From a virus, in the IMG/VR virus record IMGVR_UViG_3300035698_003810, positions 1 to 64,000 of that record: DNA of 64,000 nt; one strand, written 5' to 3'. The notes beneath the pieces are model-generated. The model had not been told where the DNA came from and made no database searches. It worked only from the letters and a program-made list of their open reading frames with translations. Within the stretch, counting starts at the first letter, position 1; every line of letters starts with the position of its first letter. Shown piece after piece: positions 5,742 through 46,583 of the stretch. A program made the position numbers and the translations under genes.

Positions 5742-7052
5742 ATGTCTAAAAGAGAACTTATAAAAAAATGGTCTGACGTAACTGGCCCAATGAGCATTAA
5801 GAACATTGCTGACCCATATGTTAGAGAAAATTTAGCACAGCTTCTTGAGAACCAAGAATCTAAAGATATGAACGGTCGTGAGTTGTTTACTGAAGCATCA
5901 GACGGTACTGTTAACACAACTAACCTTGATGCATCAAACGCAAACTGGAGATTCCGTCCGGTAGCTCTTGCTCTTATGAGAAGAACTTTCCCTGACCTTT
6001 TCGCTAATAAAACAGTTGGTGTTCAAGCTATGAATACTCCGGTTGGTTTGTCTTATGCGTTAAGATTTACTTACAACAAAGCTGGTACAGGTGAAGAAGC
6101 TGCTTGGGATGGCCCTGATTATTACGGTGCTTACACAGGTGCAACAGGTACATCTGCTGCATTAGCACAAATTTTTGGTGCAGGTGCATTGTCAGCACAG
6201 AATGCTGGTATTTATGATTCATCTGGTATTGGTCTTGCAACAAGTGCTGGTGAAGCTCTTCAGATTTTTGAAGGCTGTCTTGGCCCATGTTCAGCAGAAC
6301 CAGAATGGAGACAATTAGGTCTTAGAATTGACAGAACAGCTATTGAAGCTGAAACAAGAAAAGTTGCAACATCATTCTCTCTTGAAGCAGCACAAGACAT
6401 CAAAGCGATGCATGGTGTTGAAATTGAAAGAGAAATGGTTAATGTTCTTCAGTATGAAATTACTGCTGAACTTGACAGACAATTACTTTACAGAATGAAA
6501 ATTGCTTCTGTTAACGTAGCTAACGGTGGTGCATCTATCACATCTATCAACTGTGCAACAGGTGGAGATATTGATGGTAGATGGTCTGGTGAAAAATACA
6601 TGAATATCGTTGCTTCAATTATTCACCAAGCAAATGTTATTGCTATCTCAACAAGACGTGGGCCGGGTAACTTTGTTATCGTATCTCCTGCGATTGCATC
6701 TTGCTTACAAGCAGCGGGACACCAATTCGTACAGTACGATTCAAAAGTAAACCCAACTACAGTTATGGCAGCAATCGGTAGACTTAACGGTTCTATCGAA
6801 GTATATAGAGACCAATACGCAAGAGCAGATTATGCACTTGTTGGATATAAAGGCCCAGGTATCTCAGATTCTGGTATTATCTTTAGTCCATATATCATGG
6901 GTCTTCAAAACAGAGCTATTAGTCCTGATGACTTCTCACCAAGAATTGGCGTAATGTCAAGATATGCTATCACAGATAGTTTACTTGGTAGTGGTAGATA
7001 TTACAGACTTCTTAGTTTCTATAATGTAAATCAAATCATAGCTGGTGCGTAA
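5742..7052 (+). CDS. gp23: major capsid protein (T4 gp23-like)
   Basis: LLENQ, GVQAMNTPVGL, EAAQDIKAMHG, EITAELDR, TRRGPGNF, VGYKG, FSPRIGVMSRY. Confidence 0.98.
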   Translation: MSKRELIKKWSDVTGPMSIKNIADPYVRENLAQLLENQESKDMNGRELFTEASDGTVNTTNLDASNANWRFRPVALALMRRTFPDLFANKTVGVQAMNTPVGLSYALRFTYNKAGTGEEAAWDGPDYYGAYTGATGTSAALAQIFGAGALSAQNAGIYDSSGIGLATSAGEALQIFEGCLGPCSAEPEWRQLGLRIDRTAIEAETRKVATSFSLEAAQDIKAMHGVEIEREMVNVLQYEITAELDRQLLYRMKIASVNVANGGASITSINCATGGDIDGRWSGEKYMNIVASIIHQANVIAISTRRGPGNFVIVSPAIASCLQAAGHQFVQYDSKVNPTTVMAAIGRLNGSIEVYRDQYARADYALVGYKGPGISDSGIIFSPYIMGLQNRAISPDDFSPRIGVMSRYAITDSLLGSGRYYRLLSFYNVNQIIAGA

Positions 7053-7091
7053 GCATAAGTTAGATTGAAAATAGCATTACAGTCGAAATAG

Positions 7092-7130
7092 AAAGGGTGG
7101 GTGAAAAATAATTCATCCACCCTTTTTTTT
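7092..7130 (+). terminator. rho-independent terminator after capsid gene
   Basis: AAAGGGTGGGTGAA / TTCATCCACCCTTT stem (one G-U) running into a T8 tract. Confidence 0.9.
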
Positions 7131-7136
7131 GTTATG

Positions 7137-7144
7137 TATAAATA
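7137..7144 (+). promoter_or_regulatory. T4-type late promoter
   Basis: TATAAATA just downstream of the terminator. Confidence 0.75.
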
Positions 7145-7195
7145 CAATAGAAGAGTGGTTTAATGAAATTATGAATTTTTTGTTTGGAGGTTTTT

Positions 7196-7546: not shown

Positions 7547-7557
7547 GGTAAATAACA

Positions 7558-8322: not shown

Positions 8323-8324
8323 AT

Positions 8325-8696: not shown

Positions 8697-8726
8697 ATAT
8701 TAATTTTAATTTTAAGGAGTATACAA

Positions 8727-9020: not shown

Positions 9021-9035
9021 TTTTTGGAGGTTACA

Positions 9036-9551: not shown

Positions 9552-9557
9552 TTTTTA

Positions 9558-10451: not shown

Positions 10452-10460
10452 GGAGAATTT

Positions 10461-11999: not shown

Positions 12000-12007
12000 G
12001 ATAGTTT

Positions 12008-13537: not shown

Positions 13538-13572
13538 ATATGTGAAATTAAAAGTTTATTAATTAAAAAATA

Positions 13573-21243: not shown

Positions 21244-21252
21244 GAATAAATT

Positions 21253-21588
21253 ATGATTAATAAATATAGTAGACAGAACTTTGTGCCGACGGTATCAGCC
21301 GGAGATTATTTAGAAAAGGATTTAATTCTTAACAATTGGGATTTGTTTGAAATAAACAGACCAATTAGATTTGATACTATACACAGACAAGATTTACAAA
21401 GACCAGATTTATTATCATTGAGAGTGTATTCAAAAATGAGTTATTTCTGGATATTGCTTAAAGTAAATATGATTGACAGTGTGTGGAATGATATGGAAAT
21501 TGGTCAAGATATAATAGTACCAGATGTTGAAGATATTGTTGATTTTGTTTTGGCTGTTAAAAAAAGAATAAGAGCTTTAAATACATAA
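21253..21588 (+). CDS. gp53: baseplate wedge protein (gp53-like, LysM-like)
   Basis: RPDLLS..VY....FWILL..N ... G..I.VP. Confidence 0.85.
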   Translation: MINKYSRQNFVPTVSAGDYLEKDLILNNWDLFEINRPIRFDTIHRQDLQRPDLLSLRVYSKMSYFWILLKVNMIDSVWNDMEIGQDIIVPDVEDIVDFVLAVKKRIRALNT

Positions 21589-21598
21589 GGGATAATAT

Positions 21599-32130: not shown

Positions 32131-32149
32131 ATTAACTGGAGGACTAATA

Positions 32150-34066
32150 ATGTCAACAAGTGCAACAAGACGAATTTTACATATAGCAACTGATAATCTT
32201 TCAGATTTGAAAGATAAACAATTTGGTAATGCATTAAGTGCATTTTCATATTACAAGACTCCAACTTTACCATCACATTGGGGTGCTAAAGATATATATA
32301 GTCAAGTGCAACATTTTGCATCATGGGATAAGAGTGTCGTATTTGACAAATTATATCTTGGTGGGGATGGTGTATCGAATGGCCCGATAACAATAGCCCG
32401 TGGTGCATCTGATGATGAACCTGTGGAGGGTACAACAAGAGCGGATAATTCTATTAATATTGGTAGGGGTTCTGGTATTAATATGGTAGACTCTGCTGGT
32501 CATATCAACATCGGTGATTTCACAGGTGCGGAGTCAAGAGGTGGTTCTGGTATATATGCTCAAAATGTTAATATTGGTTATTACACTGCTTTGTTTACAA
32601 ATGGTCAAGGTAATGTTAACATTGGAAGCACGGTTGCACATCAGATGATAGGTAATTATAATGTTTATGTTGGAATCAATGCCGGTATATACACGTCGGG
32701 GGATAGTAATTCTTTAATTGGAAATGGTGCTGCAAATTATTTTGATGGTAGCAATAATGTTGGTATTGGTAAAGATATTCTTTTTTATGCTAAAGGTAAC
32801 AATAATGCGGCATTTGGTGAAGGGAGTCTGTCATTTTCAGATACAAATTACACTGTGTCAATTGGGTATAGTGCTGGTTATTTTATGGAGTCTACATCTG
32901 GTTCGGTATTAATAGGGCGTGGTTCTGGTATGTATACATCAGGGAATTGTAATACTATTATTGGTGTTGATTCAGGTTCAACGGTATCTGGTGATGATAA
33001 TTTAGTGATTGGTAGAGGTATGGGTTTTAATATTGTTGGTCAAGATAATATTTATGTTGGTAGAGATGGTGTGTTTGCTACAAGTGGTAGTGGAAATATT
33101 GTATTTGGACATGGAGCATTTGTTCCAGTTTTGCCTCAACCTGATGTTGGTAAAGTTAAACGTGAAACTTGTGTTGTTATTGGACGATACGCAGCGGAAG
33201 TAGTTTCTAACGATTCAATAGATTCTATTTGTATTGGGAACCATGCATGTGCATCTGCATCAACGATGGATAGAGTGGTTGGTATTGGTAAAGATGTATT
33301 TGGAAATGGTGGTGTAATAACTGACAATGTGGCAATAGGAACAAGTGCCGGATATTACTCATCTCATTATAATAGTGTTTTGGTTGGATTGAATGCTGGT
33401 GCTGAAGGTGGGCATATATCTGGGGAATTAATTGCTATTGGGTCAAGAGCCGGATACAAATCAAATTCATATAGAACGATTGCTATTGGTGAAGATGCCG
33501 GTGCAAATTGTCCTTCTGGCCTTGCTGTTGGTACATTCATTGGTAGTGAAGCAGGTAGATACGGACAAATGAATGACTGTTTGGCAATTGGGGAACAAGC
33601 CGGATATGGTGCCTCTGCGGTTGACAGTATGTTTATTGGTGAGCTTGCAGGAAAAAATTCTACTGGTGGGAATTGCGTTTTCATTGGTGAGACTGCCGGA
33701 GAAAATAATACTGAAAATAATAAATTTGCAATTACAAATGGAAGTGCCATTTTATTGAGTGGTGACTTTACAACTAAAGAAGTTATTATTGACCACGTAA
33801 AATTTCCAAGAACTAATGAACCAACGGTTGTAGATGGACATGCATATATATTTGCATCAGCAGCTGGGGCATTTGGTTCACAAACAGAATTGTATGTTGA
33901 AGATAGTCAATCTAACATAACAAGAATTTCTCCCCATAATGATGAAGGGGATTGGGAATATTTTTCTCGTAATAGAAATACAGGAAAAACAATTAAAATT
34001 AATATGGAAAAATTTATCCGTAAGATGGAAGATTTTACTGGTGAAAAATTTATAGAGGAATTATAA
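32150..34066 (+). CDS. tail fibre with YadA-head-like repeats
   Basis: Many ~14-aa repeats of the N(V/I)xIGxx(A/S)G type; GGAGG before ATG 32150. Confidence 0.8.
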   Translation: MSTSATRRILHIATDNLSDLKDKQFGNALSAFSYYKTPTLPSHWGAKDIYSQVQHFASWDKSVVFDKLYLGGDGVSNGPITIARGASDDEPVEGTTRADNSINIGRGSGINMVDSAGHINIGDFTGAESRGGSGIYAQNVNIGYYTALFTNGQGNVNIGSTVAHQMIGNYNVYVGINAGIYTSGDSNSLIGNGAANYFDGSNNVGIGKDILFYAKGNNNAAFGEGSLSFSDTNYTVSIGYSAGYFMESTSGSVLIGRGSGMYTSGNCNTIIGVDSGSTVSGDDNLVIGRGMGFNIVGQDNIYVGRDGVFATSGSGNIVFGHGAFVPVLPQPDVGKVKRETCVVIGRYAAEVVSNDSIDSICIGNHACASASTMDRVVGIGKDVFGNGGVITDNVAIGTSAGYYSSHYNSVLVGLNAGAEGGHISGELIAIGSRAGYKSNSYRTIAIGEDAGANCPSGLAVGTFIGSEAGRYGQMNDCLAIGEQAGYGASAVDSMFIGELAGKNSTGGNCVFIGETAGENNTENNKFAITNGSAILLSGDFTTKEVIIDHVKFPRTNEPTVVDGHAYIFASAAGAFGSQTELYVEDSQSNITRISPHNDEGDWEYFSRNRNTGKTIKINMEKFIRKMEDFTGEKFIEEL

Positions 34067-34515
34067 TGGCTGGTTTAATTGATGATAAAGATAAAAATAG
34101 ATTTACAAGACAATTGGAGATAAATCCAAGTGGTACTAACGGATTGTATTTTATGTTATCTGCTGGAGATACATACGGTGCTGATATTTATGGGGATGTT
34201 CAAATATTTTCATTTGTTAGTATTAATTCAGTAGCTATAGCCGTTGGCAGTAGATATGAAGGTGGTTCATACTTTTTAAGTGCTAATGGGCAATTGACTA
34301 ATAGTGATTTTGGTACGACAAGTGCATCTGTACATGAGAATGGTTCGCAGTTAACAGTAACGGTTCAATCATATAGTATGTATGGTATTATGGAAATTTT
34401 ATTTACAAATGCTAATGCGACTGATATTATGACGGTGGTTACTAATATAGAATTTCAAAATGTTATGTATGATGCTTACATGGTTGAAGTTCCAGACCCA
34501 CCATCATTACCATAG
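34066..34515 (+). CDS. small fibre-associated beta protein, paralog 1
   Basis: IDDKDKNRFT ... NIEF shared with next two ORFs. Confidence 0.7.
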   Translation: MAGLIDDKDKNRFTRQLEINPSGTNGLYFMLSAGDTYGADIYGDVQIFSFVSINSVAIAVGSRYEGGSYFLSANGQLTNSDFGTTSASVHENGSQLTVTVQSYSMYGIMEILFTNANATDIMTVVTNIEFQNVMYDAYMVEVPDPPSLP

Positions 34516-34523
34516 GAGAAATA

Positions 34524-34943
34524 ATGGCAATAGGAAGTCGTATAGATGATATATTATTGAGTAGATTTACAAAGAGAATGGCGATAGCAAATGCATCGGC
34601 ATATACTCTTACATTTACTAATACATGGGGATTCACAACGTGGGCTGCTGGTGTTGAGGTGAAAGTTGCTTTACATAGACCAAGTGTTAGTGCTACAAAT
34701 CTTGGTTCTTATTGGATTGGTGGTACATTTGTTATTAGTGGTGGTGTTTTTATAGAATCTGATATTACAATAAGAAGAGAAAGTTGTACATTGAGTGGTG
34801 ATTTTGATGCAATTTTTGCTGTGAATAGTACTGATAACAAATCAATAGATATTGCATTGACAAATGGTGGTGCTGATTGTAGTGCCGTGTGTAATGTAGA
34901 ATTTTATACAGCTTATGGATATACTATAAGCGCATCACCATAG
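34524..34943 (+). CDS. small fibre-associated beta protein, paralog 2
   Basis: IDDILLSRFT ... NVEF; AGGAG RBS. Confidence 0.7.
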   Translation: MAIGSRIDDILLSRFTKRMAIANASAYTLTFTNTWGFTTWAAGVEVKVALHRPSVSATNLGSYWIGGTFVISGGVFIESDITIRRESCTLSGDFDAIFAVNSTDNKSIDIALTNGGADCSAVCNVEFYTAYGYTISASP

Positions 34944-35374: not shown

Positions 35375-36217
35375 ATGGAAATTGATATTAAAGAATTGAG
35401 AAGTCGTGATATAAAAAAAAGAGAAAAAAATATTAAAGATATTGAGACATTTAAAAAATATGATATTAAAATATTGACACCATTTTATAATGTGATTGAT
35501 ACAAAGACTGAAAGGGCAATTTTAAAATTATTAGATTCAAAGACATTGAATTGTGCATGGTTATCATTACAAGGTACAGCGATTGCATATATTAGAAATA
35601 AACTTGTTAATGATGGTAACTCAGATTTACAATATCAGAAATTAAATGATGGGTTTACTCATTATTTATTTATAGATTCAGATACAGTTGTTAATGAAAA
35701 TACAGTTAAAAAATTATTATCATATGATTTGGATATAGTTGCCGGAGCATATGTTAGTAGAGAATCTGAACACTGTTATGTTGGTGGACATTTTAAATAT
35801 GAAGATGATAATATAATTGATTTTGTAAATATAGAAAAAACAACTAAAGGCTTAATTGAAGTTGATTGGATTGGTGCAGGATGTTTACTTATAAAGAAAG
35901 AAGTATTTGAAAATCTTCCATATCCTTGGTTTCATTACCCTATTATTGAAAAAATGTATAATGGGGAAAAACACACACAAATGGTATTTGAAGATGTGGG
36001 TTTTTCAATGTTAGCAAAAAAGTATGGTTATAAAATTTTTATGGATTGTGATGTTGAAGTAACACATTATGCAAGAAACTATCAAAGAGAAAATGTAACA
36101 GATTTTGAATTGCTATTTACAAATGTTAGTGATGATATGAATAAGGTATTTCAATTAATGAGAATGATGAGTTATAGAATAAATGATTTGGAAAAAAAGA
36201 AAGAGGACGATAAATAA
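35375..36217 (+). CDS. GT-A fold glycosyltransferase (GT2-like)
   Basis: RN.L, YLFIDSD (DxD), GAGCLLIKKEVFE, EDVGF, G.KI..D......H. Confidence 0.88.
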   Translation: MEIDIKELRSRDIKKREKNIKDIETFKKYDIKILTPFYNVIDTKTERAILKLLDSKTLNCAWLSLQGTAIAYIRNKLVNDGNSDLQYQKLNDGFTHYLFIDSDTVVNENTVKKLLSYDLDIVAGAYVSRESEHCYVGGHFKYEDDNIIDFVNIEKTTKGLIEVDWIGAGCLLIKKEVFENLPYPWFHYPIIEKMYNGEKHTQMVFEDVGFSMLAKKYGYKIFMDCDVEVTHYARNYQRENVTDFELLFTNVSDDMNKVFQLMRMMSYRINDLEKKKEDDK

Positions 36218-37714: not shown

Positions 37715-40700
37715 ATGGCTAATTTTTTTGAAGATTTTGTTGCATCAACTGGAAATTTTTTCTATGCTGCACAGGTTGGATACCCATCATACCGATATTG
37801 GTATATCGATTATGTTAAGTTAATACCAACTGATGCTGTTGCATATCAACCGGGATTCCTTCTTGTTGAAACACAACCAGAATTGAATGGTAGCTTGTCG
37901 GCTTCATATGTAAATCTTGACCCATATAATGGTTGTGATAACTTTATAATTATTAGATATCAAAGTCCAACTGAATTTATGGGTTTGCGTGTTAATCCGG
38001 GGACTCTTGACCAAAAGGGAATTTATGTTTCTCATTCTAACCCAAGTGAATGGCAGGGTGAGGGTAATGCATTATCTCAAGGTGATACAAAACTTAATCT
38101 TATAAACTCAGCAGGTGTTGCGATTAGTGCTGAAACGTGGCCTAATAAAACTGCGTTTCCTCTTGATGGTTTAATTACAGTTGATATTACAAGTAATAAT
38201 AATTATTCTCTTGAATGGTGGGATTCAGACCACACAATATTATATGCCTCTGCTACATTTATTGATAACCATATTATATCATCGGCAGGACACCACGGGT
38301 TCTTCCACACTACAAAATGGGATGCAAACATTGACGGGTGGGATTATATCATGTGGGTTGATGGTGTATCTGCGGTTACACCACCGACAATAGAATCATT
38401 CAGTGCAACTGATTATGTAATAACTGATGGAGATAGTACTACTTTAGGGTGGTTTGTTTTAAGTGGTGATAATGATACAATAGTTACGATTGACAATGGG
38501 GTTGGTGATGTAGATTTATTTGGAACATCAGCTATAACTCCGGGGCTTGGTAGCCACACATATACAATATCAGCTTATAATGATGGTGGTTCAGTAAGTG
38601 CAGATTTTGGTTTGACAGTACTGGCAAATGCACCGACAATTGAGATATTTTCTGCATCTAATACTCCAGTGTCTGCTGGAGAAAATTCAACATTGGGGTG
38701 GATTACATCTGGTTCTTCTGTATCAGCTTTCATTGATAATGGTGTTGGTTGGATAACTCCTATTTGGGAAGTTAGTGCAGGTACGTATGAAGTTTCTGCA
38801 TTGACAGCAACAACAACATACACAATGTCAGCGTTTGATGTTAGTGATAACTTTGTTACCGACTCAACAACAGTTGAAGTTACTCCACCAATAATATCAG
38901 TATTTTCTGCCGACACACCAATATCTGCTGGTGGTAATTCAACATTGACATGGGAGACATCGGGTAGTTCTGTATCAGCATTTATTGATAATGATATTGG
39001 TTGGGTGACTCCAGTTAGTGCAGGTACATATGAAGTTTCTGCATTAACAGCAACAACAATATACACATTGTCAGCATTTGATTTTGTTGGTAATTATGTA
39101 ACAGACACTGCATTGGTTGTGGTGTCAGCGGTACCACAAATAGTTGGTGGTACATTTTCGGCAACACCAAATCCAGTTTGTTCAGGGTCTGATTATTTAA
39201 TTAGTTGGGAAACATTGGGAGCAACATCAGCATTCATTGATAATGGTGTTGGTTGGATTGCTTCATCTGCTGTAACTTCTGGTTCATATGGAACATCAGC
39301 TTCACTACCGACAACATATTCATTGTCTGCGTGGAATGACCTTGGAAATATTACAAGTGCGAGTTATATTCAACAGGTTTATTATAGAGACCCTGTTGCA
39401 GATGCAGGAAGTGATTTAGTATTTTCTGCAACGGATACCAGTGGGGTATCGGTAACATTTAATTCAAGTGCCAGTTATGACCCTGATGGTCAAGCTATTG
39501 CAACATATTTATGGACATCAGCAGGTACGGTAATATCAACATCAGAATATTTTACTCTTGTATTATCTGCTGGAGACTATGTATTTGATTTATTGATTAC
39601 CGATGGATGTAATCAATCGGGAACTGATAGTGTAAGTGCTTCTGTTGTGAATTTAATTCCTCCGGTTGCTATTGCAAGTGCAACTCCATATTTTGTAAAT
39701 GCTGGTGAAAGTTTTATTTTATCTGGTCAAGATAGTTATGACCCCGACGGAGCAATAGATAGTTACTTATGGGATTTAAGCGGAACATTCCTTTCAGCGA
39801 CTGACGTAGCGGTACACACACAAAATACAGTGGGTGATTATACATATACATTGACAGTAACAGACACAAGTGGATTATCTGCTTCTGATACAACGTTAGT
39901 TCATGTGAATGGTATATACGCTCCAAGTGCTAATGCTGGTGACGACCAATCACATTGTATGGTTTCTGGTGATTCGGTGGATGTAACACTTAATGGTAGT
40001 GATAGTTTTCCTTCTGAAACTGGTGGTACAATAGTTTGGTATGAGTGGGAATTAAGTGCGTTTGGTGTGTCTAATGTATCTGCCGATGTATCTGCGGTAT
40101 ATGAGATTTCAGCAACTGTAAGTGATGTTTCTGCATTTGGTACATATGAAGTTGGTTTGGTAGTTTCGGCATCAAATGGTATTATTGATAATGACATAAT
40201 GAGTGTAACTATTAATCGTCAAGCAATTGTATCTGCTGGTGATGACCAAACACATAATCTATCGTGTAGTGCTTCATTTATTAATATTGGGTTAAGTGGC
40301 AGCTCTGATTTATCTGGTACGTATATTTGGTATTTTAAAGATGGTGAAGTCACACAACAAGGACAAAATGTTACAAGAGAATATTCAGTAGGAACATACA
40401 GTGCCGGATTAGAAATTGTAACAACAGCAGCCAATGGTGCTGTATGTACATCAGACCAAGATATTATTAATATTGTTATAAGTGCCAACCCAATGTCAAT
40501 TGAAACATTTGAGTTTAGCCCTAATTTTATAAATGGAACGTCTGCATATGTGTGGACAACATTGTCATGGGAAACATCTGGTGCAGTAAGTGCAACTATT
40601 GATAATAATGTTGGGTGGTTAGATACATCAGCAATTAGTGCGGGTAGCATTGCGGTTTCAGCAACAAGTAGTATAACATATGCGATTTCAGCATTTGATG

Positions 40701-42013
40701 TTAGTGGTTGTATGATAACAGCAACAACAACAGCTATAATAAATTTAGGAACGATTTCAGCTTGTTTACTTAAAGTAAATTATATTTCTCTATTTGGCCC
40801 GGAACATATACGATGGGGTGAATGTCGAGATATTAATTTGGTTGACATGTTACCATCAACATTGAATGGTACAGATACAGAAACATATCTTAAAGTTTAT
40901 CAAGATTATTTAAATGAAATGTATGCGGGAAGTTGTGGGTATACCCTTGGTGCATCAGCATTAGATACATGTGCGTGTGAAGTTTCAGCATGTCTATTAT
41001 CTGCTGTTAATAATTTTTATGAACATCAAACATATTTGAGTGGTGGAATTTCAGCGAACACTTTATACACCCCTACTGATGATGTTGAGAAAGTATTCCT
41101 TAGTAATTTTTGTCAAATACCAAAAGATAATATATCTGTTCTTGAAAAGACATATAGATTGACAGAATTGTTTGACCCGGATTTAATTCCGATTGAGTTA
41201 ATTCAATTCTATGCATCTAATCTTGGATATAAAGTTGGATTGAGTCGTGATAATGTTGGGTTAGATTTTTCTGCTGCTCAAACAACATCAGAAGAGTCAA
41301 TAAATCAAAAGAAATATTTACGTTTCATGATTAGAAATTTACCAACATGGTACAAAATTAAAACAACAAGAAACTCAGTTAAGATGATGTTGTACTCATT
41401 TGGGTTAGTTGGTGATTTTATTTATTACTTTACAAGAAATTATAGAGACCCCGATACAGGAATTGGTTTAAATAGCTTAGAATATAATGCAACTAATGGA
41501 ATCACAGTAAACACTCCAAGTGGTGGTACAGACACTTCTGGTTTTAATAACTATGTTATTAATGATAACATGACATATAGAGAACTTCAGAAATTGAAAT
41601 GTGATACATCACAATGGGAAGAATTTAAGAACAATAAAAAAGCATATTTCAATATGTTGAACGATTTACAACCGACAGGAAATAATGATTGGTTATTGAC
41701 TGATGTAAATCCTATATCGGTACAGGAAGATATTTCAAATATCCCGGATGCTTTCTTCTCATCACCCCATTTTAGATTGTGGTTTGATATTTTAGAAAGT
41801 TTAACAAATGGAAATTATACAACTGATTTACATAGACAGAAATTAATATCAGAATCAATAAAGGCAATCAAGCCAATCAATACAGTTTTTGAGGGTGTTA
41901 CAGGTGTATTTAGAACTGTAGTTGATTTATACTACTTAGCATATCCGAGAATTAGAAAACACATTTCATTATTCTCTGATGGTTATGCGGATTGGTATAT
42001 GCCTGATGTTTAA
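37715..42013 (+). CDS. Ig/PKD-repeat protein fused to a gp7/P2-gpI-like baseplate wedge domain
   Basis: Repeats PTI..FSA...STL.W...IDNGVG; PKD-like PVADAG.D and SYDPDG.I..YLW; C-terminal DPD.IP...I...A..LG and IRNLP.WYKIK.T. Confidence 0.8.
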   Translation: MANFFEDFVASTGNFFYAAQVGYPSYRYWYIDYVKLIPTDAVAYQPGFLLVETQPELNGSLSASYVNLDPYNGCDNFIIIRYQSPTEFMGLRVNPGTLDQKGIYVSHSNPSEWQGEGNALSQGDTKLNLINSAGVAISAETWPNKTAFPLDGLITVDITSNNNYSLEWWDSDHTILYASATFIDNHIISSAGHHGFFHTTKWDANIDGWDYIMWVDGVSAVTPPTIESFSATDYVITDGDSTTLGWFVLSGDNDTIVTIDNGVGDVDLFGTSAITPGLGSHTYTISAYNDGGSVSADFGLTVLANAPTIEIFSASNTPVSAGENSTLGWITSGSSVSAFIDNGVGWITPIWEVSAGTYEVSALTATTTYTMSAFDVSDNFVTDSTTVEVTPPIISVFSADTPISAGGNSTLTWETSGSSVSAFIDNDIGWVTPVSAGTYEVSALTATTIYTLSAFDFVGNYVTDTALVVVSAVPQIVGGTFSATPNPVCSGSDYLISWETLGATSAFIDNGVGWIASSAVTSGSYGTSASLPTTYSLSAWNDLGNITSASYIQQVYYRDPVADAGSDLVFSATDTSGVSVTFNSSASYDPDGQAIATYLWTSAGTVISTSEYFTLVLSAGDYVFDLLITDGCNQSGTDSVSASVVNLIPPVAIASATPYFVNAGESFILSGQDSYDPDGAIDSYLWDLSGTFLSATDVAVHTQNTVGDYTYTLTVTDTSGLSASDTTLVHVNGIYAPSANAGDDQSHCMVSGDSVDVTLNGSDSFPSETGGTIVWYEWELSAFGVSNVSADVSAVYEISATVSDVSAFGTYEVGLVVSASNGIIDNDIMSVTINRQAIVSAGDDQTHNLSCSASFINIGLSGSSDLSGTYIWYFKDGEVTQQGQNVTREYSVGTYSAGLEIVTTAANGAVCTSDQDIINIVISANPMSIETFEFSPNFINGTSAYVWTTLSWETSGAVSATIDNNVGWLDTSAISAGSIAVSATSSITYAISAFDVSGCMITATTTAIINLGTISACLLKVNYISLFGPEHIRWGECRDINLVDMLPSTLNGTDTETYLKVYQDYLNEMYAGSCGYTLGASALDTCACEVSACLLSAVNNFYEHQTYLSGGISANTLYTPTDDVEKVFLSNFCQIPKDNISVLEKTYRLTELFDPDLIPIELIQFYASNLGYKVGLSRDNVGLDFSAAQTTSEESINQKKYLRFMIRNLPTWYKIKTTRNSVKMMLYSFGLVGDFIYYFTRNYRDPDTGIGLNSLEYNATNGITVNTPSGGTDTSGFNNYVINDNMTYRELQKLKCDTSQWEEFKNNKKAYFNMLNDLQPTGNNDWLLTDVNPISVQEDISNIPDAFFSSPHFRLWFDILESLTNGNYTTDLHRQKLISESIKAIKPINTVFEGVTGVFRTVVDLYYLAYPRIRKHISLFSDGYADWYMPDV
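38771..39082 (+). repeat. near-identical 69-nt direct repeat within tandem Ig domains
   Basis: 38771-38839 vs 39014-39082 (GTTAGTGCAGGTAC...TTTGAT), about 5 mismatches, in frame. Confidence 0.85.
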
Positions 42014-42019
42014 GAAAAA

Positions 42020-42033
42020 TATAAATATAAATA
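42020..42033 (+). promoter_or_regulatory. overlapping T4-type late promoters
   Basis: TATAAATATAAATA. Confidence 0.8.
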
Positions 42034-42067
42034 GATATATAGTTAATATATTAAGGAGAAATTATTA

Positions 42068-44977
42068 ATGGCACAATATGCAATGATTACAGAAACTGGT
42101 CTGAACGAGATAGATAATGCTCATCCATTGGGACAATATATTGAAATAGCATATTACTTACCAGTTTACGATTATAGAATAGACCCAAATATTTTACCAA
42201 CAGATACTTCTATAAGTGGAACTGAAATCAGAACGTGTACAAGTTCTGCTGACACTGTACCACAAGGAGAAATTCTATGGAATGTTTCTGGAGATTCCTA
42301 TACATTATCACCAGAACAATTATATTTGATACGTACAGGGGATGAACTTGTAACTACAAGTGGTACAAATAAACAGATAACTAATTTTGCACATAGAGAA
42401 GTGTTCTCTATAAATAAATTTAAAACAAGTGCTATTGGTGATTACTATACAGGTGATACAGTATCATCTCCGGGAACGGCTGGTGCATCATGGTTTATAT
42501 CTAATGCAGGGTATGGTTTGTTATCAGCACCAACATCTGCCGAGGGATTTGGCCCGGAAGACCCGGACAGTCCAGCAGCGAGTTTTCTTTACAAAGGTGT
42601 AACATATCAACATGTTATTACATCTGCTAATGATAGTAGAGCTAATTTCAAAGTTACTATGAGAGCAGAACATGGACAAATCAAATTTAATAAAGTTGGT
42701 TTGTATGGTGTTAAGAGAACAGCAGATGGTGTTATTGCTACCGACCCATTTTTATTTGGACAAGTAATTATTCCTGAACCACAAATTCTTTATTCAAGAG
42801 ATGTTGGTAGCACGGGTAAAGTAACGGAAATTACATTAGATTATCAAATTGAATCAAAAACACTAAGTGCTGGTTTATTTGAAGATGTATTTTATTCAAC
42901 ATCTGGTGACTATTGGGTAAGAACAACTAATGAAGAAAATGGCAATTATGGTCTATCATATGATGGTAGTGTATATATTTCAAATACATTAGGCATAGAC
43001 GAAACAGGACAGGTGTTACCGGGTGATGACGATAGAAGTGTAGCCAAACTACTGGTTAGTACATTTGAGTACGTTAATAAGCCTGTAACGAGTGCTGAGA
43101 GAGAAATGCCTCAACTTTGCTTACAATATGTTGCAAGTCAAGGTATAGAATCAAAACGTATCAGAACAACAATGAAAACTAATGTGAGTGGTGATTGTGA
43201 ATTTGATATGTATGGTGCATGTTTAAGTGCTCATCCTGATAACTATTCATTGATTCCTGCTATTGACAAAGGTTATGGTTTGGGGTTAGAAGGTAAAAGG
43301 TGGAGTCATGCATATATATCAAACACATTTGAAATGTTTAATGACTCTTGGGCTGATGTTACATCCGGTTCAAACTTTCTTGATTCATATATTAATTTTG
43401 ATAGTTCAAATGCACTGGCTCATTTTGGAAGCACAAATGTTTATGTTGGCCCATACCATAACACAAAACAAATTAAATTCGATGGGTCTACATTTTTAAA
43501 AAAAATTAACAATACAAGATATATGCATGGTAATATTTCATCATATCGTGCTTCGGCAACTGGTAATGATATTATTACTGGTGTTGAAAATATATACACG
43601 CAAGAATATGATTTACTTATAAGAGGATTAAATGATATTGCATTGGTTACATTATCAGCCGGAAGTGAATCATCATTCACTGCTGAAGAAATTATTGATA
43701 AAATTTGGACAACATATACAATAACCGAAGCTGAAATTGACAGATTAAAAAAACTTATAACTGCCAATGAAATAAGTATTGATGTAATAAATGGTGATAT
43801 TGCTCAGTTTACAACATCAACACCTGTTGGTTTAATACAAGAAAGAAATCAATTAACATTTGAAAATGAAAAATTAGCTTCACAAATTAAAACATTAGAA
43901 GAAAGTGGTGAGAATATTAACACATATCTTGGAGAATCTCAAGATATTCTTCTTGTTGCTGGAAGAAATATTCATACAAATGGAAATGTGATTCCGTTAA
44001 GAAATCTTGTAAATGATTTGGGTTGGTGGGATAATCAATTTGCTCATGTGTTTACAGAAAACATCACTGGGTGGAATAGGGATGATGGTAATGGTAGACA
44101 AGTGACATTCCAAGGACATATAGTTCCTGATGGTACTGGACATAAAATAAGAGAAAACAAATGGACAGGATGGGAATGGTCTGAAATTACTGCAAAGAAG
44201 TTTGGTCGAACTGATAAATATGTTGAAAAGGCATATTTAAGAAAAATATACACTCGTGATATTAGAATTGAAGAAAACGGTAGTCTTGAGTTTACTAATG
44301 GTATTAAAATGTCAAATAGTAGTATATGGGGAAATATTAACAATATAGGGACGGATACTAATCCAGTTAATATAATTTATGTTAATGATTTGGTATTGAA
44401 AAATCAATATAAAACATACACTGTTGGTGATTTATTAACACCAAAATCAACTTCTATTTATTCATCAAATTTTAAATCAGCGGGTGGGTCATTTAAATTT
44501 AAAAATGTAACAGCGAGATATAGTGCAATACAGCAGGGTGGTATTTTATATTTAACTTTTGAAAAAGACCAATCTATTGCAGATGCTTCTTCTAATTGGA
44601 ATCCAAATGATATACCAGGTAAAAAAGATATGGTTACTATACCATATTCTGGAATGATGCAAATATTTGGATTTAATACTATGCAGTATGTGGATAGTAC
44701 TCCTATTACATTACAACAATATGTTCATTCAAATGAAGATGGTATTGGTGGAAAAGATGAAGGTAATTTTAAATTTGCGGGTACTATATTTCAAGCCCCT
44801 GATGATATAGGATTTGTTGTGGCTGGTAAATATAGAACATTAACCAACCCAAGTGATGGTAGTTCTAAAAGGTTTTGGAAATTTTTAGCCGGTAATAAGG
44901 TTAGTATAAGGGATACCGACATCGTTCTTACATTTAAGTTTACAGGAGTATTGACTTCAGTATGGTCAGAACAATAA
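42068..44977 (+). CDS. tail collar/fibre protein (P2 gpH/DUF3751-like N-terminus)
   Basis: N-terminal IT..G...I..A and FNKVGLY...LFG resemble baseplate-attachment domains; follows gp7-like gene. Confidence 0.65.
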   Translation: MAQYAMITETGLNEIDNAHPLGQYIEIAYYLPVYDYRIDPNILPTDTSISGTEIRTCTSSADTVPQGEILWNVSGDSYTLSPEQLYLIRTGDELVTTSGTNKQITNFAHREVFSINKFKTSAIGDYYTGDTVSSPGTAGASWFISNAGYGLLSAPTSAEGFGPEDPDSPAASFLYKGVTYQHVITSANDSRANFKVTMRAEHGQIKFNKVGLYGVKRTADGVIATDPFLFGQVIIPEPQILYSRDVGSTGKVTEITLDYQIESKTLSAGLFEDVFYSTSGDYWVRTTNEENGNYGLSYDGSVYISNTLGIDETGQVLPGDDDRSVAKLLVSTFEYVNKPVTSAEREMPQLCLQYVASQGIESKRIRTTMKTNVSGDCEFDMYGACLSAHPDNYSLIPAIDKGYGLGLEGKRWSHAYISNTFEMFNDSWADVTSGSNFLDSYINFDSSNALAHFGSTNVYVGPYHNTKQIKFDGSTFLKKINNTRYMHGNISSYRASATGNDIITGVENIYTQEYDLLIRGLNDIALVTLSAGSESSFTAEEIIDKIWTTYTITEAEIDRLKKLITANEISIDVINGDIAQFTTSTPVGLIQERNQLTFENEKLASQIKTLEESGENINTYLGESQDILLVAGRNIHTNGNVIPLRNLVNDLGWWDNQFAHVFTENITGWNRDDGNGRQVTFQGHIVPDGTGHKIRENKWTGWEWSEITAKKFGRTDKYVEKAYLRKIYTRDIRIEENGSLEFTNGIKMSNSSIWGNINNIGTDTNPVNIIYVNDLVLKNQYKTYTVGDLLTPKSTSIYSSNFKSAGGSFKFKNVTARYSAIQQGGILYLTFEKDQSIADASSNWNPNDIPGKKDMVTIPYSGMMQIFGFNTMQYVDSTPITLQQYVHSNEDGIGGKDEGNFKFAGTIFQAPDDIGFVVAGKYRTLTNPSDGSSKRFWKFLAGNKVSIRDTDIVLTFKFTGVLTSVWSEQ

Positions 44978-45004
44978 TTTTTTATAAAAAAAGGAGATAT
45001 TGAA

Positions 45005-45511
45005 ATGGAAGTAACATTGAAAAATCGTGAATTGGTTGATTTGTTTGATGCAATGAAACAGATAAGTGAAACAGAGAAAAATAATAAATGGTTTACTTAT
45101 GCGGTGACATTAAATGAGCAAAATTTAATGCCGAAAGTTATTGCTATTATAGAATGTGGTAAACCTGCAAATGAATATAAATCATTTGAGGCTGAACGAG
45201 AAAAATTAATTGATGTGTATGTTGAACGTGATGAAGATGGTAATTATGTTGTTGATGAAAGCACACAAATGATTAAGATTAAAAATGAATTTATAGTAGA
45301 AGCAAAACAAAAATTTGATGAATTGGATAAAAATAATGAAAGTATTCGTATTCAAAGACAAAATGATATAAACGAATATTATGCATTATTGGATAAAGAA
45401 ACAACGGTTGATATTGAGCAAATATCATTAGATAATTTTCCTAATTATATGAATAAAATAATGATGAAATCATTACAACCATTAATAGCCAAAACAATTA
45501 TAGAGGATTAA
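45005..45511 (+). CDS. helical hypothetical protein, possible fibre chaperone
   Basis: AAGGAG RBS; follows fibre gene. Confidence 0.6.
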   Translation: MEVTLKNRELVDLFDAMKQISETEKNNKWFTYAVTLNEQNLMPKVIAIIECGKPANEYKSFEAEREKLIDVYVERDEDGNYVVDESTQMIKIKNEFIVEAKQKFDELDKNNESIRIQRQNDINEYYALLDKETTVDIEQISLDNFPNYMNKIMMKSLQPLIAKTIIED

Positions 45512-45513
45512 TA

Positions 45514-46146
45514 ATGGCGTACAACGCATTTCCAAATACGTTCCATAATGATAAGTGGGTATTGACATTTAGTAATTTACCTAATGTTGGTGACCTTTCT
45601 GATATGAGATATTTTCAAAGCTATATTAAAAATTTAATATTGCCGGATTATAATATGGGAGAAATAGCTGATGTTGGCCCATTTGGATTCCAAGTAAGAC
45701 ATCCGATTGCCGGGATGAAAAAGAATACAGAGTTAAGTCAATTACAAATTGAATTTAAATTGTCGGAAGATTTATTAAACTATATGTATTTTTTCCGTTG
45801 GATAAAGGATTTGAAATATGGTAATTTAAATGAAGGTGCGTATACTGATTTAATTAGAAAGTTTACAATCAAGAAGGCCATTCTTAGTATTTTGGATAAT
45901 CAAAAGAGAACAGTTGTTAATTTATTTTTTACAGAATTATTTTTGTTAAATTTAAGTTCTCTTCAATTGACAATGGGTAGTTCAGATGAAGTTACATTTA
46001 CGTGTAATTTTAGTTATGAAGAAATTGATTATGACATTAAAGACCCATCAATTGGAAGTTCTAATCCGACAACTCCGACACTTGTTAACCCATGTGGAAC
46101 GAGTGCAGTACCTGCTACTTCAGCATCAACTGATTGGGAGATATAA
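45514..46146 (+). CDS. tail tube terminator/completion protein (gp3-like)
   Basis: F...P, ..LP, L.IEF.L.EDL.NY....W, LSILDN, F..LF...LS.L, F.Y pattern of T4 gp3. Confidence 0.75.
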   Translation: MAYNAFPNTFHNDKWVLTFSNLPNVGDLSDMRYFQSYIKNLILPDYNMGEIADVGPFGFQVRHPIAGMKKNTELSQLQIEFKLSEDLLNYMYFFRWIKDLKYGNLNEGAYTDLIRKFTIKKAILSILDNQKRTVVNLFFTELFLLNLSSLQLTMGSSDEVTFTCNFSYEEIDYDIKDPSIGSSNPTTPTLVNPCGTSAVPATSASTDWEI

Positions 46147-46583
46147 TGTATTACATAGTGCAAGTATCAGAATTAAGTGATTTCTCTAACTTGGCATCTA
46201 ATAAGATTGTAGAGGAAGTTACCGAGGATGTTATTACATATGGATTAGATACAGGTACTCTATATTATTGGAGAGCGAAAAGTGTAAACAATCAAACAGG
46301 TAAGGAAAGTGTTTGGTCTGCTACATGTTGGTTTATAACTCAGTATGCTGATATTATAATAATCCAAGGAAGTCATACAGATGGTGTTGAGTTGAATAAT
46401 GTTATTTACTATGAGGCTGGAGTTAATAGAGCATCAACATGTTTTGCACCGGATGGAATTATTGCTGATAAGTTATGTCGTAGCTCTTCGGCATGTTGTG
46501 GTGCTATTGCTACAGATGTTCCAGTGGGTGATGATGGGCTTGGTAGTGGTTTGTGTGGTCAGAGTTGTTCTGAATTATTATAA
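46146..46583 (+). CDS. Fn3-like protein with Cys-rich C-terminus
   Basis: Y.VQVS...DFS, L..GT.YYWR.KS, S.WS; TAATG overlap with upstream gene. Confidence 0.7.
   Translation: MYYIVQVSELSDFSNLASNKIVEEVTEDVITYGLDTGTLYYWRAKSVNNQTGKESVWSATCWFITQYADIIIIQGSHTDGVELNNVIYYEAGVNRASTCFAPDGIIADKLCRSSSACCGAIATDVPVGDDGLGSGLCGQSCSELL

What the first reader, a model, noticed from the sequence alone, without database searches (positions are those of the whole stretch)
5742..46583. Short x-Ser-Ala/x-Ser-Gly motif saturates outer virion proteins: candidate sequon for phage-encoded O-glycosylation
Seen: the 1432-aa Ig/PKD protein has about 60 SA dipeptides versus about 15 AS by manual count, e.g. LSAFGVSNVSADVSAVYEISATVSDVSAFG and DTSAISAGSIAVSATSS. 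The same (V/L/I/T/S/F/A)-S-(A/G) unit recurs in unrelated folds: capsid (GTSAA, ALSAQ, ATSAG, PCSAE), gp13 (VSAG, LSG), gp15 tail (VSG, TSG, LSG, VSAS), sheath (TSGAGLSG, ISA, SSA, TSGTSA, FSA), gp53 (VSAG), gp6, fibres 27343/32150/42068 (LLSAPTSAE) and the gp3-like tail (GTSAVPATSAS). It is nearly absent from scaffold, terminase, RegA, acidic internal proteins and the GT enzymes (about 2 SA in 1101 aa). Ser codons vary (TCA, TCT, AGT, TCG), so the signal is at protein level, not a DNA repeat. Known: virion protein glycosylation by phage GTs has been shown in some mycobacteriophages. Inference: a virion-wide acceptor sequon read by the phage GTs in this window, giving a dense glycan coat. I know of no described sequon-based system in T4-like phages.
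Basis: partly seen in the sequence, partly recalled or inferred. Interest (0 to 1): 0.93.

Follow-up and report, generated by a model that had tools for sequence, protein, structure and literature searches.

The report
Ser-Ala tag on phage tail fibres
The outer tail proteins of this uncultured marine T4-like phage and its close relatives carry far too many copies of a short hydrophobic/Thr-Ser-Ala motif, which looks like a tag read by some enzyme, possibly the phage's own sugar-adding genes next door, though no modification has been shown.

Summary
The count is exact: the 1432-aa Ig/PKD protein has 60 SA, 15 AS and 12.6 expected (z 14.8). The signal is in-frame only.

The bias is not virion-wide. 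Seven neighbouring distal-tail proteins are enriched (47 vs 20.6, rank 1 of 325 dipeptides). The other 27 structural proteins, capsid and sheath included, are not (28 vs 25.5). SG is not enriched.

The real unit is [V/I/L/T/F]-S-A: 49 vs 4.6 in the big protein and 0 vs 3.9 outside the virion module.

It is clade-specific. Of 150 proteins sharing the Ig repeat, only the 7 orthologues are biased. Sites the fold family fills with Thr-Ala, Ser-Pro or Ser-Val have converged on Ser-Ala, while neighbouring Thr stays Thr. Sites turn over between orthologues while density holds.

A soluble GT/methyltransferase cluster lies downstream and is shared by all 4 biased genomes where that region is visible. 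This co-occurrence is confounded by phylogeny.

A Ser O-glycosylation tag is the best reading (about 0.4) but is unproven. This scan has noted similar motifs on other DNA.

The parts
37715..42013 (+). 1432-aa distal tail protein: N-terminal domain, about 800 aa of Ig-like and PKD repeats, and a conserved C-terminal domain of about 420 aa. It is the main carrier of the motif.
   Evidence: SA 60 vs 12.6, z 14.8. [VILTF]SA 49 vs 4.6, p 6e-33. PKD_4 / K319L-like PKD hits at aa 650-731. phrog_2155 'virion structural protein'. Orthologues in L001, L002, L005, L006, L049-L053 keep the bias.
27343..30339 (+). 998-aa distal tail/fibre-like protein carrying the motif. No family assignment.
   Evidence: SA 10 vs 2.6 (p 4e-4). 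[VILTF]SA 8 vs 0.9 (p 5e-6). No Pfam or PHROG hit. Its 40%-identical orthologue in L005 has 13 vs 3.3, with only 4 shared sites.
42068..44977 (+). 969-aa distal tail/fibre-like protein carrying the motif.
   Evidence: SA 12 vs 4.5 (p 2e-3). [VILTF]SA 8 vs 1.5 (p 2e-4). Orthologues: L001 8 vs 3.0, L002 10 vs 3.8, L005 7 vs 2.7, L049 14 vs 5.0, L052 9 vs 4.6.
30352..32130 (+). 592-aa fibre-block protein with a weaker excess.
   Evidence: SA 7 vs 2.9 (p 0.03). [VILTF]SA 3 vs 0.94.
32090..34066 (+). 658-aa Gly-rich fibre-block protein with a marginal excess. The start codon is uncertain because the ORF overlaps the preceding gene.
   Evidence: SA 9 vs 4.9 (p 0.06). Weak PHROG tail-spike hit.
34066..34943 (+). 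Two small fibre-block proteins (149 and 139 aa) with small excesses.
   Evidence: SA 3 vs 1.0 and 4 vs 1.7. [VILTF]SA 3 vs 0.34 and 2 vs 0.65.
35375..36217 (+). 280-aa probable GT-A glycosyltransferase inside the fibre operon. It carries no SA itself.
   Evidence: Pfam Glyco_trans_2_3 only at E 0.066, below cut-off. 7 of 27 homologues carry precomputed PF03452 hits. phrog_1574, unknown function. Conserved in L001, L002, L052 and L053, but no tblastn match in the strongly biased G001 and L049, so it is not required for the bias.
49164..49868 (+). GT2 glycosyltransferase, 234 aa.
   Evidence: PF00535 at E 4e-15. Homologues in L046 and L052.
49927..53232 (+). 1101-aa multidomain soluble glycosyltransferase: TOD1/MUCI70-like domain (aa 46-215), GT2 (aa 351-474), and about 500 unassigned C-terminal residues. 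It is the GT-cluster protein most widely conserved among the relatives examined here.
   Evidence: Pfam. Homologues: G001 52% over 855 aa, L049 62% over 592 aa, L052 71% over 345 aa (to the locus end), G003 48% over 410 aa and G002 46% over 323 aa (N-terminal domain only), none in G004. No KD segment of 1.6 or more. SA 2 vs 2.3.
53244..60275 (+). Rest of the glycan assembly and tailoring cluster: methyltransferase, DUF6492, an unassigned 284-aa protein, B12-binding radical SAM enzyme, two GT47/RXYLT1-like proteins, methyltransferase, GT11, methyltransferase.
   Evidence: Pfam. All but the first methyltransferase and the radical SAM enzyme have 49-73% identical homologues in G001. No multi-pass membrane protein.

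Best explanation
[V/I/L/T/F]-Ser-Ala is a clade-specific acceptor tag on the distal tail proteins of this phage lineage: the 1432-aa Ig/PKD protein and the fibre-like proteins around it.

Proposed mechanism. Late in infection, soluble phage glycosyltransferases act in the cytoplasm. The conserved 1101-aa TOD1/MUCI70+GT2 enzyme, with the neighbouring GT2, GT47-like, GT11 and methyltransferase genes building and tailoring the glycan, O-glycosylates the Ser. That Ser sits at a surface position of a beta-strand, next to a small core Ala. The result is glycan-decorated tail appendages, not a coated capsid.

Shown: the motif, its restriction to these proteins, its clade specificity, the convergence on Ser-Ala, the site turnover, and the presence and conservation of the enzymes. 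Inferred: that the Ser is modified at all, that the modification is a sugar, and which enzyme starts it.
For: (1) Size and order of the bias. SA z 14.8 in the big protein. SA ranks 1 of 325, 305 and 306 dipeptides in three fibre pools that exclude that protein (z 6.2, 9.1, 5.9). Top z in 16 comparison loci (13 without SA bias, plus L006, L007 and L009) is only 2.4-4.3. AS is far weaker (15 in the big protein).

(2) Not a trait of the fold. Over 150 proteins with the same Ig repeat, pooled SA O/E is 1.12 and the median is 1.09. Only 7 of 150 reach 2.4-4.9, and these are exactly the 7 that share the N- and C-terminal domains, i.e. the orthologues.

(3) Convergence on SA from different family states. 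At the strand-F site the family has TA in 427 of 730 and 436 of 675 instances, and SA in 31 and 31. The orthologues have SA in 12 of 15 and 15 of 16. Other sites come from SP, SV or variable pairs. The Thr-to-Ser change is specific to the pre-Ala position: flanking Thr-rich columns (74-86% Thr in the family) remain Thr in the window at 7 of 8 columns. Gaining Ala (GCN) from Val or Pro runs against the 32% GC drift.

(4) Turnover with maintained density. Protein 27343 and its 40%-identical orthologue have 10 and 13 SA, of which 4 are shared. The rest lie opposite unrelated dipeptides. Ser within SA is conserved at 0.60-0.68 against 0.35-0.36 for other Ser in the three longest window-L005 orthologue pairs.

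(5) The -1 preference holds only in the tail proteins: 82%, 62% and 65% against 33-41% for other Ser. In the other window proteins it is 37% against 34%.

(6) Family columns under the Ser tolerate E, K, N and R, while the +1 column is 73-83% Ala at the two conserved sites. This is the pattern of an exposed strand residue beside a core residue.

(7) Enzymes. A contiguous GT/methyltransferase/radical-SAM cluster lies 3-13 kb downstream, with no multi-pass membrane protein. All 4 of 4 biased genomes with that region in hand carry the 1101-aa homologue: window, G001, L049 and L052. G001 shares nearly the whole cluster. The complete genome G004 has no bias and no match to any protein encoded between 47195 and 63848, the GT cluster included.

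(8) Precedent that an O-glycosylating enzyme can discriminate Ser from Thr about 500-fold and prefer Ala-flanked Ser (PMC8423747, passages read). Precedent for cytoplasmic O-glycosylation genetically linked to its substrate (PMC12645811, passages read).
Against: No chemistry of any kind exists; these phages are uncultured (no match to any isolated phage for the C-terminal domain).

The co-occurrence of motif and GT cluster comes from one clade, so it may be shared ancestry only. No independent lineage was found: L046 is truncated before the fibre genes.

GT2 genes are present in all 5 of 5 relatives tested, including the 2 complete genomes without the bias. G002 and G003 keep the TOD1-like domain but have a weak or single-protein bias. 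Cellulophaga phage phi18:1 has a 28%-identical TOD1-like GT and no SA excess in any of 12 proteins tested.

The sites lie in conserved beta-strand columns of folded domains, unlike the disordered acceptor regions of PglL systems (PMC8423747). No known protein O-GT family was identified among the enzymes: no solved-structure sequence match for the 1101-aa or 280-aa proteins, and no GT9 profile match.

The published reading of GT genes in the fibre region of marine T4-like phages is modification of the host O-chain (PMC7029224, passages read).
Confidence: 0.4

Rival explanations
1. The motif is a clade-specific structural or evolutionary idiosyncrasy with no modification. One version is a packing or folding preference for Ser-Ala at strand positions of beta-rich tail proteins, spread by recombination and domain duplication within the fibre module. 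In this reading the GT cluster serves another purpose, such as changing the host surface to block co-infection.
For: The Ala at +1 is already the fold family's core residue at two sites (73-83%) and the preceding column is already Thr/Ser-rich, so part of the motif is inherited architecture. O/E falls with divergence among orthologues, from 4.7 and 4.6 to 3.5, 3.2, 2.9 and 2.4. Fibre modules are mosaic. GT clusters in this genomic position are read as host O-chain modifiers in PMC7029224. GT2 genes occur in relatives without the bias.
Against: A structural need should appear across the fold family, but 143 of 143 non-orthologous homologues have O/E of 1.69 or less. It should also not select Ser over the beta-branched Thr that the family prefers in strands. 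The excess also occurs in unrelated, non-Ig proteins and in the non-repeat N- and C-terminal domains. Sites turn over at positions with unrelated ancestral residues.
Confidence: 0.3
2. The motif is a recognition tag for a different trans-acting factor. Candidates are another Ser modification (for example acylation, phosphorylation or a radical-SAM-dependent change), a fibre-specific chaperone or assembly factor, or a host factor.
For: The cluster also holds four SAM methyltransferase-type proteins and a B12-binding radical SAM enzyme. Long fibres commonly need dedicated chaperones (general knowledge, not tested here).
Against: No kinase, acyltransferase or chaperone candidate was identified next to these genes. 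Glycosyltransferases dominate the neighbourhood.
Confidence: 0.2
3. The excess is a statistical artefact of internal repeats or composition.
For: Two of the Ig repeats (aa 304-391 and 392-474) are near-copies, each with about 6 SA, so the sites are not all independent.
Against: Shuffles preserve composition. The excess holds in the non-repeat N- and C-terminal domains (5 vs 1.4 and 6 vs 1.2), in unrelated proteins, and in diverged orthologues at different sites. The comparison loci calibrate the maximum chance z at about 4.
Confidence: 0.03

Closest known systems
Virion glycosylation of mycobacteriophages by phage-encoded glycosyltransferases (Freeman et al. 2023, Cell Host Microbe). I saw only the citation, in the reference list of PMC12801897. 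The paper itself is not held, so details are recalled.
   Same: Phage-encoded GTs, with a methyltransferase in some phages (recalled), lie next to structural genes and are proposed or shown to decorate virion proteins.
   Different: There the substrates are, as I recall, capsid and tail-tube proteins of siphoviruses, and no short sequon is described. Here capsid and sheath are not tagged, the carriers are distal tail proteins of a T4-like myovirus, a defined three-residue motif is seen, and nothing has been shown chemically.
Cytoplasmic flagellin O-glycosylation (Maf and other flagellin GTs), as reviewed in PMC12645811 (passages read)
   Same: Soluble GTs are genetically linked to their substrate and modify many surface Ser/Thr of a folded, later-assembled filament protein in the cytoplasm. 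Local hydrophobicity is suggested to guide site choice.
   Different: No sequon is recognised for Mafs. Here the motif is ordered and Ser-only, and no Maf-type family was detected among the enzymes scanned.
PglL-type general O-glycosylation (Burkholderia, Neisseria), PMC8423747 (abstract and passages read)
   Same: Strong Ser-over-Thr discrimination, about 500-fold, and a preference for Ala-flanked Ser. The glycotag listed in PMC12645811 contains Ser followed by Ala.
   Different: That system is a periplasmic, membrane-bound oligosaccharyltransferase acting on disordered Ala/Pro-rich regions, with Ala favoured at -1. Here the sites are in beta-strands, -1 is V/I/L/T/F (Ala at -1 in 3 of 60), the enzymes are soluble, and virions assemble in the cytoplasm.
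Bacteroidota general O-glycosylation sequon D-(S/T)-(A/I/L/V/M/T). Recalled, and named in earlier scan notes.
   Same: A three-residue sequon with a methyl-bearing residue after the hydroxyl amino acid.
   Different: Asp at -1 is defining there. Here it is 0 of 60, 2 of 47 and 1 of 40. Thr is not used here (TA 6 vs 9.3 in the repeat region).
'Host recognition cluster' of pelagimyophages and cyanomyophages, PMC7029224 (passages read)
   Same: Marine T4-like phages with a variable region that mixes tail-fibre genes and several glycosyltransferases.
   Different: That paper reads the GTs as host O-chain modifiers and reports no motif bias in the fibre proteins. Whether this phage belongs to that group was not tested.

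Membership tests
Phage-encoded virion glycosylation (mycobacteriophage type) | Phage-encoded glycosyltransferases adjacent to structural genes | tested here: met
   GT2, TOD1/MUCI70+GT2, two GT47-like proteins and GT11 at 49164-59692. Probable GT-A at 35375-36217 inside the fibre operon.
Phage-encoded virion glycosylation (mycobacteriophage type) | Glycan demonstrably attached to virion proteins (glycostain or mass spectrometry) | not testable with these tools
   Uncultured phage; no proteomic data reachable.
Phage-encoded virion glycosylation (mycobacteriophage type) | Capsid and/or tail-tube protein as substrates (recalled from Freeman et al. 2023, not read) | tested here: not met
   Taking the motif as proxy: capsid SA 4 vs 4.1. 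The 27 non-fibre structural proteins give 28 vs 25.5.
Bacteroidota D-(S/T)-(A/I/L/V/M/T) O-glycosylation | Asp immediately before the acceptor | tested here: not met
   D at -1 in 0 of 60, 2 of 47 and 1 of 40 SA sites.
Bacteroidota D-(S/T)-(A/I/L/V/M/T) O-glycosylation | Ser and Thr both used | tested here: not met
   TA is at or below expectation (6 vs 9.3 in the repeat region; 18 vs 21.5 in the fibre pool). Family Thr is replaced by Ser at pre-Ala sites.
PglL-type O-oligosaccharyltransferase systems | Ser strongly preferred over Thr | tested here: met
   At sequence level only: the strand-F site is 76-82% Thr in the family and 87-94% Ser in the orthologues.
PglL-type O-oligosaccharyltransferase systems | Acceptor sites in disordered Ala/Pro-rich regions, with Ala favoured at -1 | tested here: not met
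   Sites fall in conserved strand columns of Ig-like repeats. Ala at -1 in 3 of 60.
PglL-type O-oligosaccharyltransferase systems | Multi-pass membrane OTase acting in the periplasm | tested here: not met
   No protein with more than one hydrophobic segment in the window by a Kyte-Doolittle scan. No such Pfam family in the 20 proteins of 46134-63848 scanned.
Cytoplasmic flagellin-type O-glycosylation | Soluble GT genes genetically linked to the substrate genes | tested here: met
   Cluster 3-13 kb downstream of the tagged proteins, with one GT-like gene inside the fibre operon. No membrane-spanning segments in the GTs, apart from a borderline 1.64 in GT11.
Cytoplasmic flagellin-type O-glycosylation | Maf (DUF115) or another known flagellin GT family present | tested here: not met
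   No such family among the Pfam hits for 46134-63848 and 35375-36217.
Autotransporter heptosyltransferase (AAH/TibC, GT9-related; relation recalled) | GT9-type domain detectable | tested here: not met
   Atlas feature search places aa 590-1101 of the 1101-aa protein near viral clusters with PF01075 (score 0.92). Neither hmmscan at E up to 5 nor a PF01075 search of G000-G005 at E up to 1 finds it.

The most novel reading that the evidence does not exclude
Uncultured marine T4-like phages write clade-specific short Ser 'glyco-codes' into their distal tail proteins. Here the code is [V/I/L/T/F]-Ser-Ala on surface positions of folded beta-strands. The codes are read in the cytoplasm by phage-encoded soluble glycosyltransferase clusters that co-evolve with the code. 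The phage thereby builds glycan-decorated fibres, a sequon-based protein glycosylation system of a new enzymatic type that acts on folded domains. Earlier unchecked notes of this scan describe other motifs in other clades, which would make this a widespread and unrecognised layer of phage-host recognition.
Probability: 0.3. Interest if true: 0.85.

Novelty: new variant of a known kind. Interest (0 to 1): 0.62.

Why it matters
If the tagged serines are glycosylated, tail fibres of abundant marine T4-like phages would be glycoproteins made by the phage itself, with a readable sequence code. That would change three things: how fibre-receptor recognition and host range are modelled for these phages, how the many glycosyltransferase genes in their fibre regions are interpreted (currently read as host O-antigen modifiers), and which enzymes are available for site-specific Ser glycosylation of folded proteins.

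The motif also makes the question directly testable. A 180-aa Ig fragment with 13 SA sites (12 of them with V/I/L/T/F at -1), plus a defined set of soluble enzymes, can be co-expressed and weighed.

Even if no sugar is attached, a dipeptide bias this large, clade-specific and convergent (z about 15) needs an explanation.

Tried and rejected
DNA-level repeat or codon effect: rejected. The signal is in-frame only (60/0/0) and the codons are mixed.

Trait of the Ig/PKD fold: rejected. 143 of 150 homologues are unbiased.

Simple inheritance from one ancestor: weakened by site turnover and by convergence from TA, SP and SV.

An alternative motif in the comparison loci (for example Asp-Ser, as in earlier scan notes): not found. 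Top z is 2.4-4.3 and DS z is -0.7 to 1.7 in 16 loci.

Independent lineage carrying the TOD1/MUCI70-like GT:
- The viral-contig scan gave 4 loci. Three were already known and the fourth (L046) ends before the fibre genes, so it is uninformative.
- Among isolated phages, 11 records matched. I examined one, Cellulophaga phi18:1, which has no SA excess in 12 proteins. Synechococcus phage S-SCSM1 was not examined.

The embedded 280-aa GT as the initiating enzyme: unlikely to be required, because it has no match in the strongly biased G001 and L049.

GT9 (heptosyltransferase) identity for the C-terminal half of the 1101-aa protein: a feature-based lead only, not supported by profile searches.

Sequence matches to solved structures for the 280-aa and 1101-aa proteins: none.

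Isolated-phage match for the C-terminal domain of the 1432-aa protein: none.

Literature:
- (search listings only) returned no paper describing a sequon or glycosylated fibres in T4-like phages.
- The 2025 review PMC12645811 contains the word 'phage' 0 times.
- These three searches and this one review are the whole basis for saying I found nothing in print. Supplementary files were not requested.

Exposure of the tagged Ser: could not be modelled (see below). The statement that Ser is exposed rests only on family column patterns.

The metagenome scan returned 5 loci, all from the same clade. At most half of the CEPX record may be held, so I did not look for the rest of the L049 GT cluster.

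Full report
WHAT THE WINDOW IS. The window is the first 64 kb of an 84.5-kb viral contig. CheckV estimates it as 35% complete. It is 29-35% GC with all genes on the + strand. It is a distant T4-like myovirus:
- The capsid protein (5742-7052) is at most about 35% identical to gp23 of cyanomyophages.
- T4-type large terminase and sheath are present.
- A gp6-like baseplate wedge subunit lies at 24481.
- A RegA homologue lies at 46638.
The C-terminal domain of the 1432-aa protein has no match in 50,697 isolated-phage records, so this lineage has no cultured relative in that collection.

THE OBSERVATION. I translated 61 + strand ORFs and counted dipeptides against composition-based expectation and against shuffles.
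The 1432-aa protein has 60 SA and 15 AS, with 12.6 expected (sd 3.2, z 14.8). The next dipeptide reaches z 5.1.
- 60 of its 109 Ala follow Ser.
- Ser codons within SA are mixed, like other Ser codons. SA-coding hexamers occur 60, 0 and 0 times in the three frames. The signal therefore lies in the protein, not the DNA.
- It is not only the repeats. The N-terminal 210 aa have 5 vs 1.4 and the C-terminal 422 aa have 6 vs 1.2.

SCOPE. The claim that the motif saturates the outer virion does not hold.
- Eight proteins of the block 24481-44977, without the big protein, have 52 vs 24.7 (z 5.8).
- The remaining 27 structural proteins have 28 vs 25.5 (z 0.5). This set includes the capsid (4 vs 4.1) and the sheath (6 vs 3.3).
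- The 25 proteins outside the finding have 7 vs 13.2.
- SG is nowhere enriched.
- Dropping the unenriched gp6-like protein, seven distal-tail proteins give 47 vs 20.6, and SA ranks first of 325 testable dipeptides.

The unit is a tripeptide. V, I, L, T or F precedes SA as follows:
- 49 of 60 sites in the big protein, against 44 of 107 other Ser;
- 29 of 47 sites in the fibre pool, against 99 of 303 other Ser;
- 26 of 40 sites in the fibres of relative L005;
- only 13 of 35 SA sites in all other window proteins, which is background.

[VILTF]SA counts:
- 49 vs 4.6 in the big protein;
- 8 vs 0.9 in 27343;
- 8 vs 1.5 in 42068;
- 13 vs 7.9 in the core virion proteins;
- 0 vs 3.9 outside the virion module.

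NOT A PROPERTY OF THE FOLD. A two-repeat segment (aa 304-482) scored against 1.84 billion representative proteins found 1332 relatives at E of 0.001 or better. I analysed the 150 that were returned.
- Pooled SA O/E is 1.12 and the median is 1.09.
- The distribution is bimodal: 7 proteins lie at 2.4-4.9 and 143 lie at or below 1.69.
- The 7 are exactly those sharing the N- and C-terminal domains of the window protein, at 28-85% identity, i.e. its orthologues.

WHAT CHANGED IN THIS LINEAGE. I aligned 776 domain instances from the 143 other proteins to the query.
- The window's SA sites correspond to different family states.
- At the strand-F site (the family's 'Y-T-L-T-A-x-D'), TA occupies 427 of 730 and 436 of 675 instances, and SA only 31 and 31.
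- Other sites are F-[T/S]-A, S-P, S-V or variable.
- The orthologues have SA at the strand-F site in 12 of 15 and 15 of 16 instances.
- The Thr-to-Ser switch is specific to the position before Ala. Flanking columns with 74-86% Thr in the family remain Thr in the window at 7 of 8 columns.
- The columns under the Ser tolerate E, K, N and R in the family, and the following column is 73-83% Ala at the two conserved sites. By the usual in-out alternation of beta-strands (general knowledge), this puts Ser on the surface and Ala in the core.
- A structural model to test this could not be made.

RELATIVES. Scans of viral and metagenome contigs gave graded relatives.

Orthologues of the big protein keep the bias:
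- L001: 60 vs 12.9
- L002: 49 vs 11.1
- L005: 35 vs 7.7
- L049: 48 vs 12.9
- L050: 42 vs 9.4
- L052 (partial): 20 vs 4.1
- L006, at 37% identity: 23 vs 6.9

Their neighbouring large proteins are biased too. The L005 pool has 40 vs 11.9 (z 9.1, rank 1 of 305). The L049 pool has 40 vs 16.9 (z 5.9, rank 1 of 306).

In 13 more distant loci, which share only the C-terminal domain, 52 ORFs of 250 aa or more give 161 vs 183. I dropped L018 as a near-duplicate of L017. Over 16 comparison loci (these 13 minus L018, plus L006, L007 and L009), the top dipeptide z is 2.4-4.3, which calibrates chance, and no alternative motif such as Asp-Ser appears.

Sites turn over. Protein 27343 and its 40%-identical orthologue have 10 and 13 SA with 4 shared. 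The others face unrelated dipeptides. In the big protein against L005, 27 sites are shared of 56 and 34 aligned. The commonest replacement is SG (7 of 29). Ser within SA is conserved at 0.68 against 0.36 for other Ser.

THE ENZYMES. Downstream of RegA lies a contiguous cluster:
- GT2 (49164);
- a 1101-aa protein with TOD1/MUCI70-like and GT2 domains (49927);
- a methyltransferase, DUF6492 and an unassigned protein;
- a B12-binding radical SAM enzyme;
- two GT47/RXYLT1-like proteins and a methyltransferase;
- GT11 and a further methyltransferase.

None has more than a borderline hydrophobic segment. The window holds no multi-pass membrane protein.

A 280-aa protein inside the fibre operon (35375) is probably a GT-A enzyme. 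7 of its 27 homologues carry precomputed PF03452 hits, while Pfam itself gives only E 0.066.

Distribution across relatives:
- G001 shares nearly the whole cluster, and L049 and L052 share the 1101-aa enzyme. So 4 of 4 biased genomes with that region in hand have it. For L001, L002, L050, L051, L053 and L011 the region is beyond the contig end.
- G002 and G003 keep only the TOD1-like N-terminal domain. They have a weaker overall excess, 105 vs 90 and 61 vs 42.
- The complete genome G004 has none of these proteins and no excess (69 vs 68), although it has other GT2 genes.

This graded pattern fits the sequon idea, but it equally fits shared descent. The one independent check was negative. A Cellulophaga phage with a 28%-identical TOD1-like GT shows no SA excess. 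At that distance the enzyme may well do something else.

READING. The motif has the properties expected of the target of a trans-acting reader:
- it is ordered;
- it is Ser-specific;
- it has a flanking preference;
- it is restricted to one functional class of proteins;
- it is absent from relatives;
- it is gained convergently against mutational drift;
- it is maintained in density while individual sites move.

The adjacent soluble GT cluster is the obvious candidate reader and writer. Ser-over-Thr discrimination with Ala-flanked sites is documented for PglL (PMC8423747). Cytoplasmic, substrate-linked O-glycosylation is documented for flagellins (PMC12645811).

I therefore rank Ser O-glycosylation of distal tail proteins first, at about 0.4. 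A purely structural or evolutionary idiosyncrasy follows at about 0.3, with the GTs serving host-surface modification as proposed for pelagimyophages (PMC7029224). Another modification or an assembly factor follows at about 0.2.

It is not a member of the Bacteroidota sequon system (no Asp at -1) or of PglL-type systems (no membrane OTase, sites not disordered). No known protein O-GT family was recognised among the enzymes.

NOVELTY AND CONTEXT.
- I found no published description of a sequence tag or glycosylated fibres in T4-like phages in three literature searches (listings only) or in one recent review.
- I could not read Freeman et al. 2023.
- This scan has noted comparable clade-specific Ser motifs on outer tail proteins of other uncultured aquatic T4-like phages, including (T/V/I/L)-S-A and L-S-(A/G) cases. 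Those are unchecked notes on other DNA and I did not use them as evidence.
- No look-alike of this window's sequences is indexed among them.

VERDICT.

Noticed in passing
window 60356-60739: A 127-aa protein directly after the GT/methyltransferase cluster has one very hydrophobic segment (KD 2.89). It is the only clear membrane-type segment near the cluster, and it has a 55% identical homologue in G001.
   Followed up: no
window 13633-15534; G002 62619-64694: The sheath protein has SA 6 vs 3.3 with AS 1. Its 47%-identical homologue in G002 has 10 vs 3.8 (p 0.006 among 51 ORFs). This may be a mild excess in exposed sheath domains, but it is not significant after multiple testing.
   Followed up: partly
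window 1-5741 and 46638-63848: [VILTF]SA occurs 0 times where 3.9 are expected in the 25 proteins outside the virion module (Poisson p about 0.02). This may be avoidance of the tag in non-virion proteins.
   Followed up: no
L005 7367-9967; L049 7403-9883: In these relatives the homologue of the window's 485-aa protein (36217) is 340-380 aa longer and SA-rich (16 vs 4.0 and 13 vs 6.1). The 280-aa GT-like gene upstream of it in the window has no match there.
   Followed up: partly
L054 (NC_021790.1) 21056-22728: Cellulophaga phage phi18:1 carries a TOD1-like glycosyltransferase next to a PF13578-type methyltransferase (annotated as a DNA methyltransferase), between the head-morphogenesis and prohead-protease genes. 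This GT+MT pairing inside a virion module resembles the pairing in the window.
   Followed up: no
window 18200-20251: The 683-aa protein has peptidase and endolysin-type PHROG hits (aa 182-339 and 526-583). It sits where a gp5-like baseplate hub or cell-puncturing lysozyme would be expected.
   Followed up: no
window 49927-53232, aa 590-1101: The unassigned C-terminal half of the 1101-aa enzyme is placed by language-model features near viral clusters with GT9 and DUF5672 domains (score 0.92). Profile HMMs do not confirm this.
   Followed up: yes
The true start is uncertain. This does not affect the SA statistics materially.
   Followed up: no
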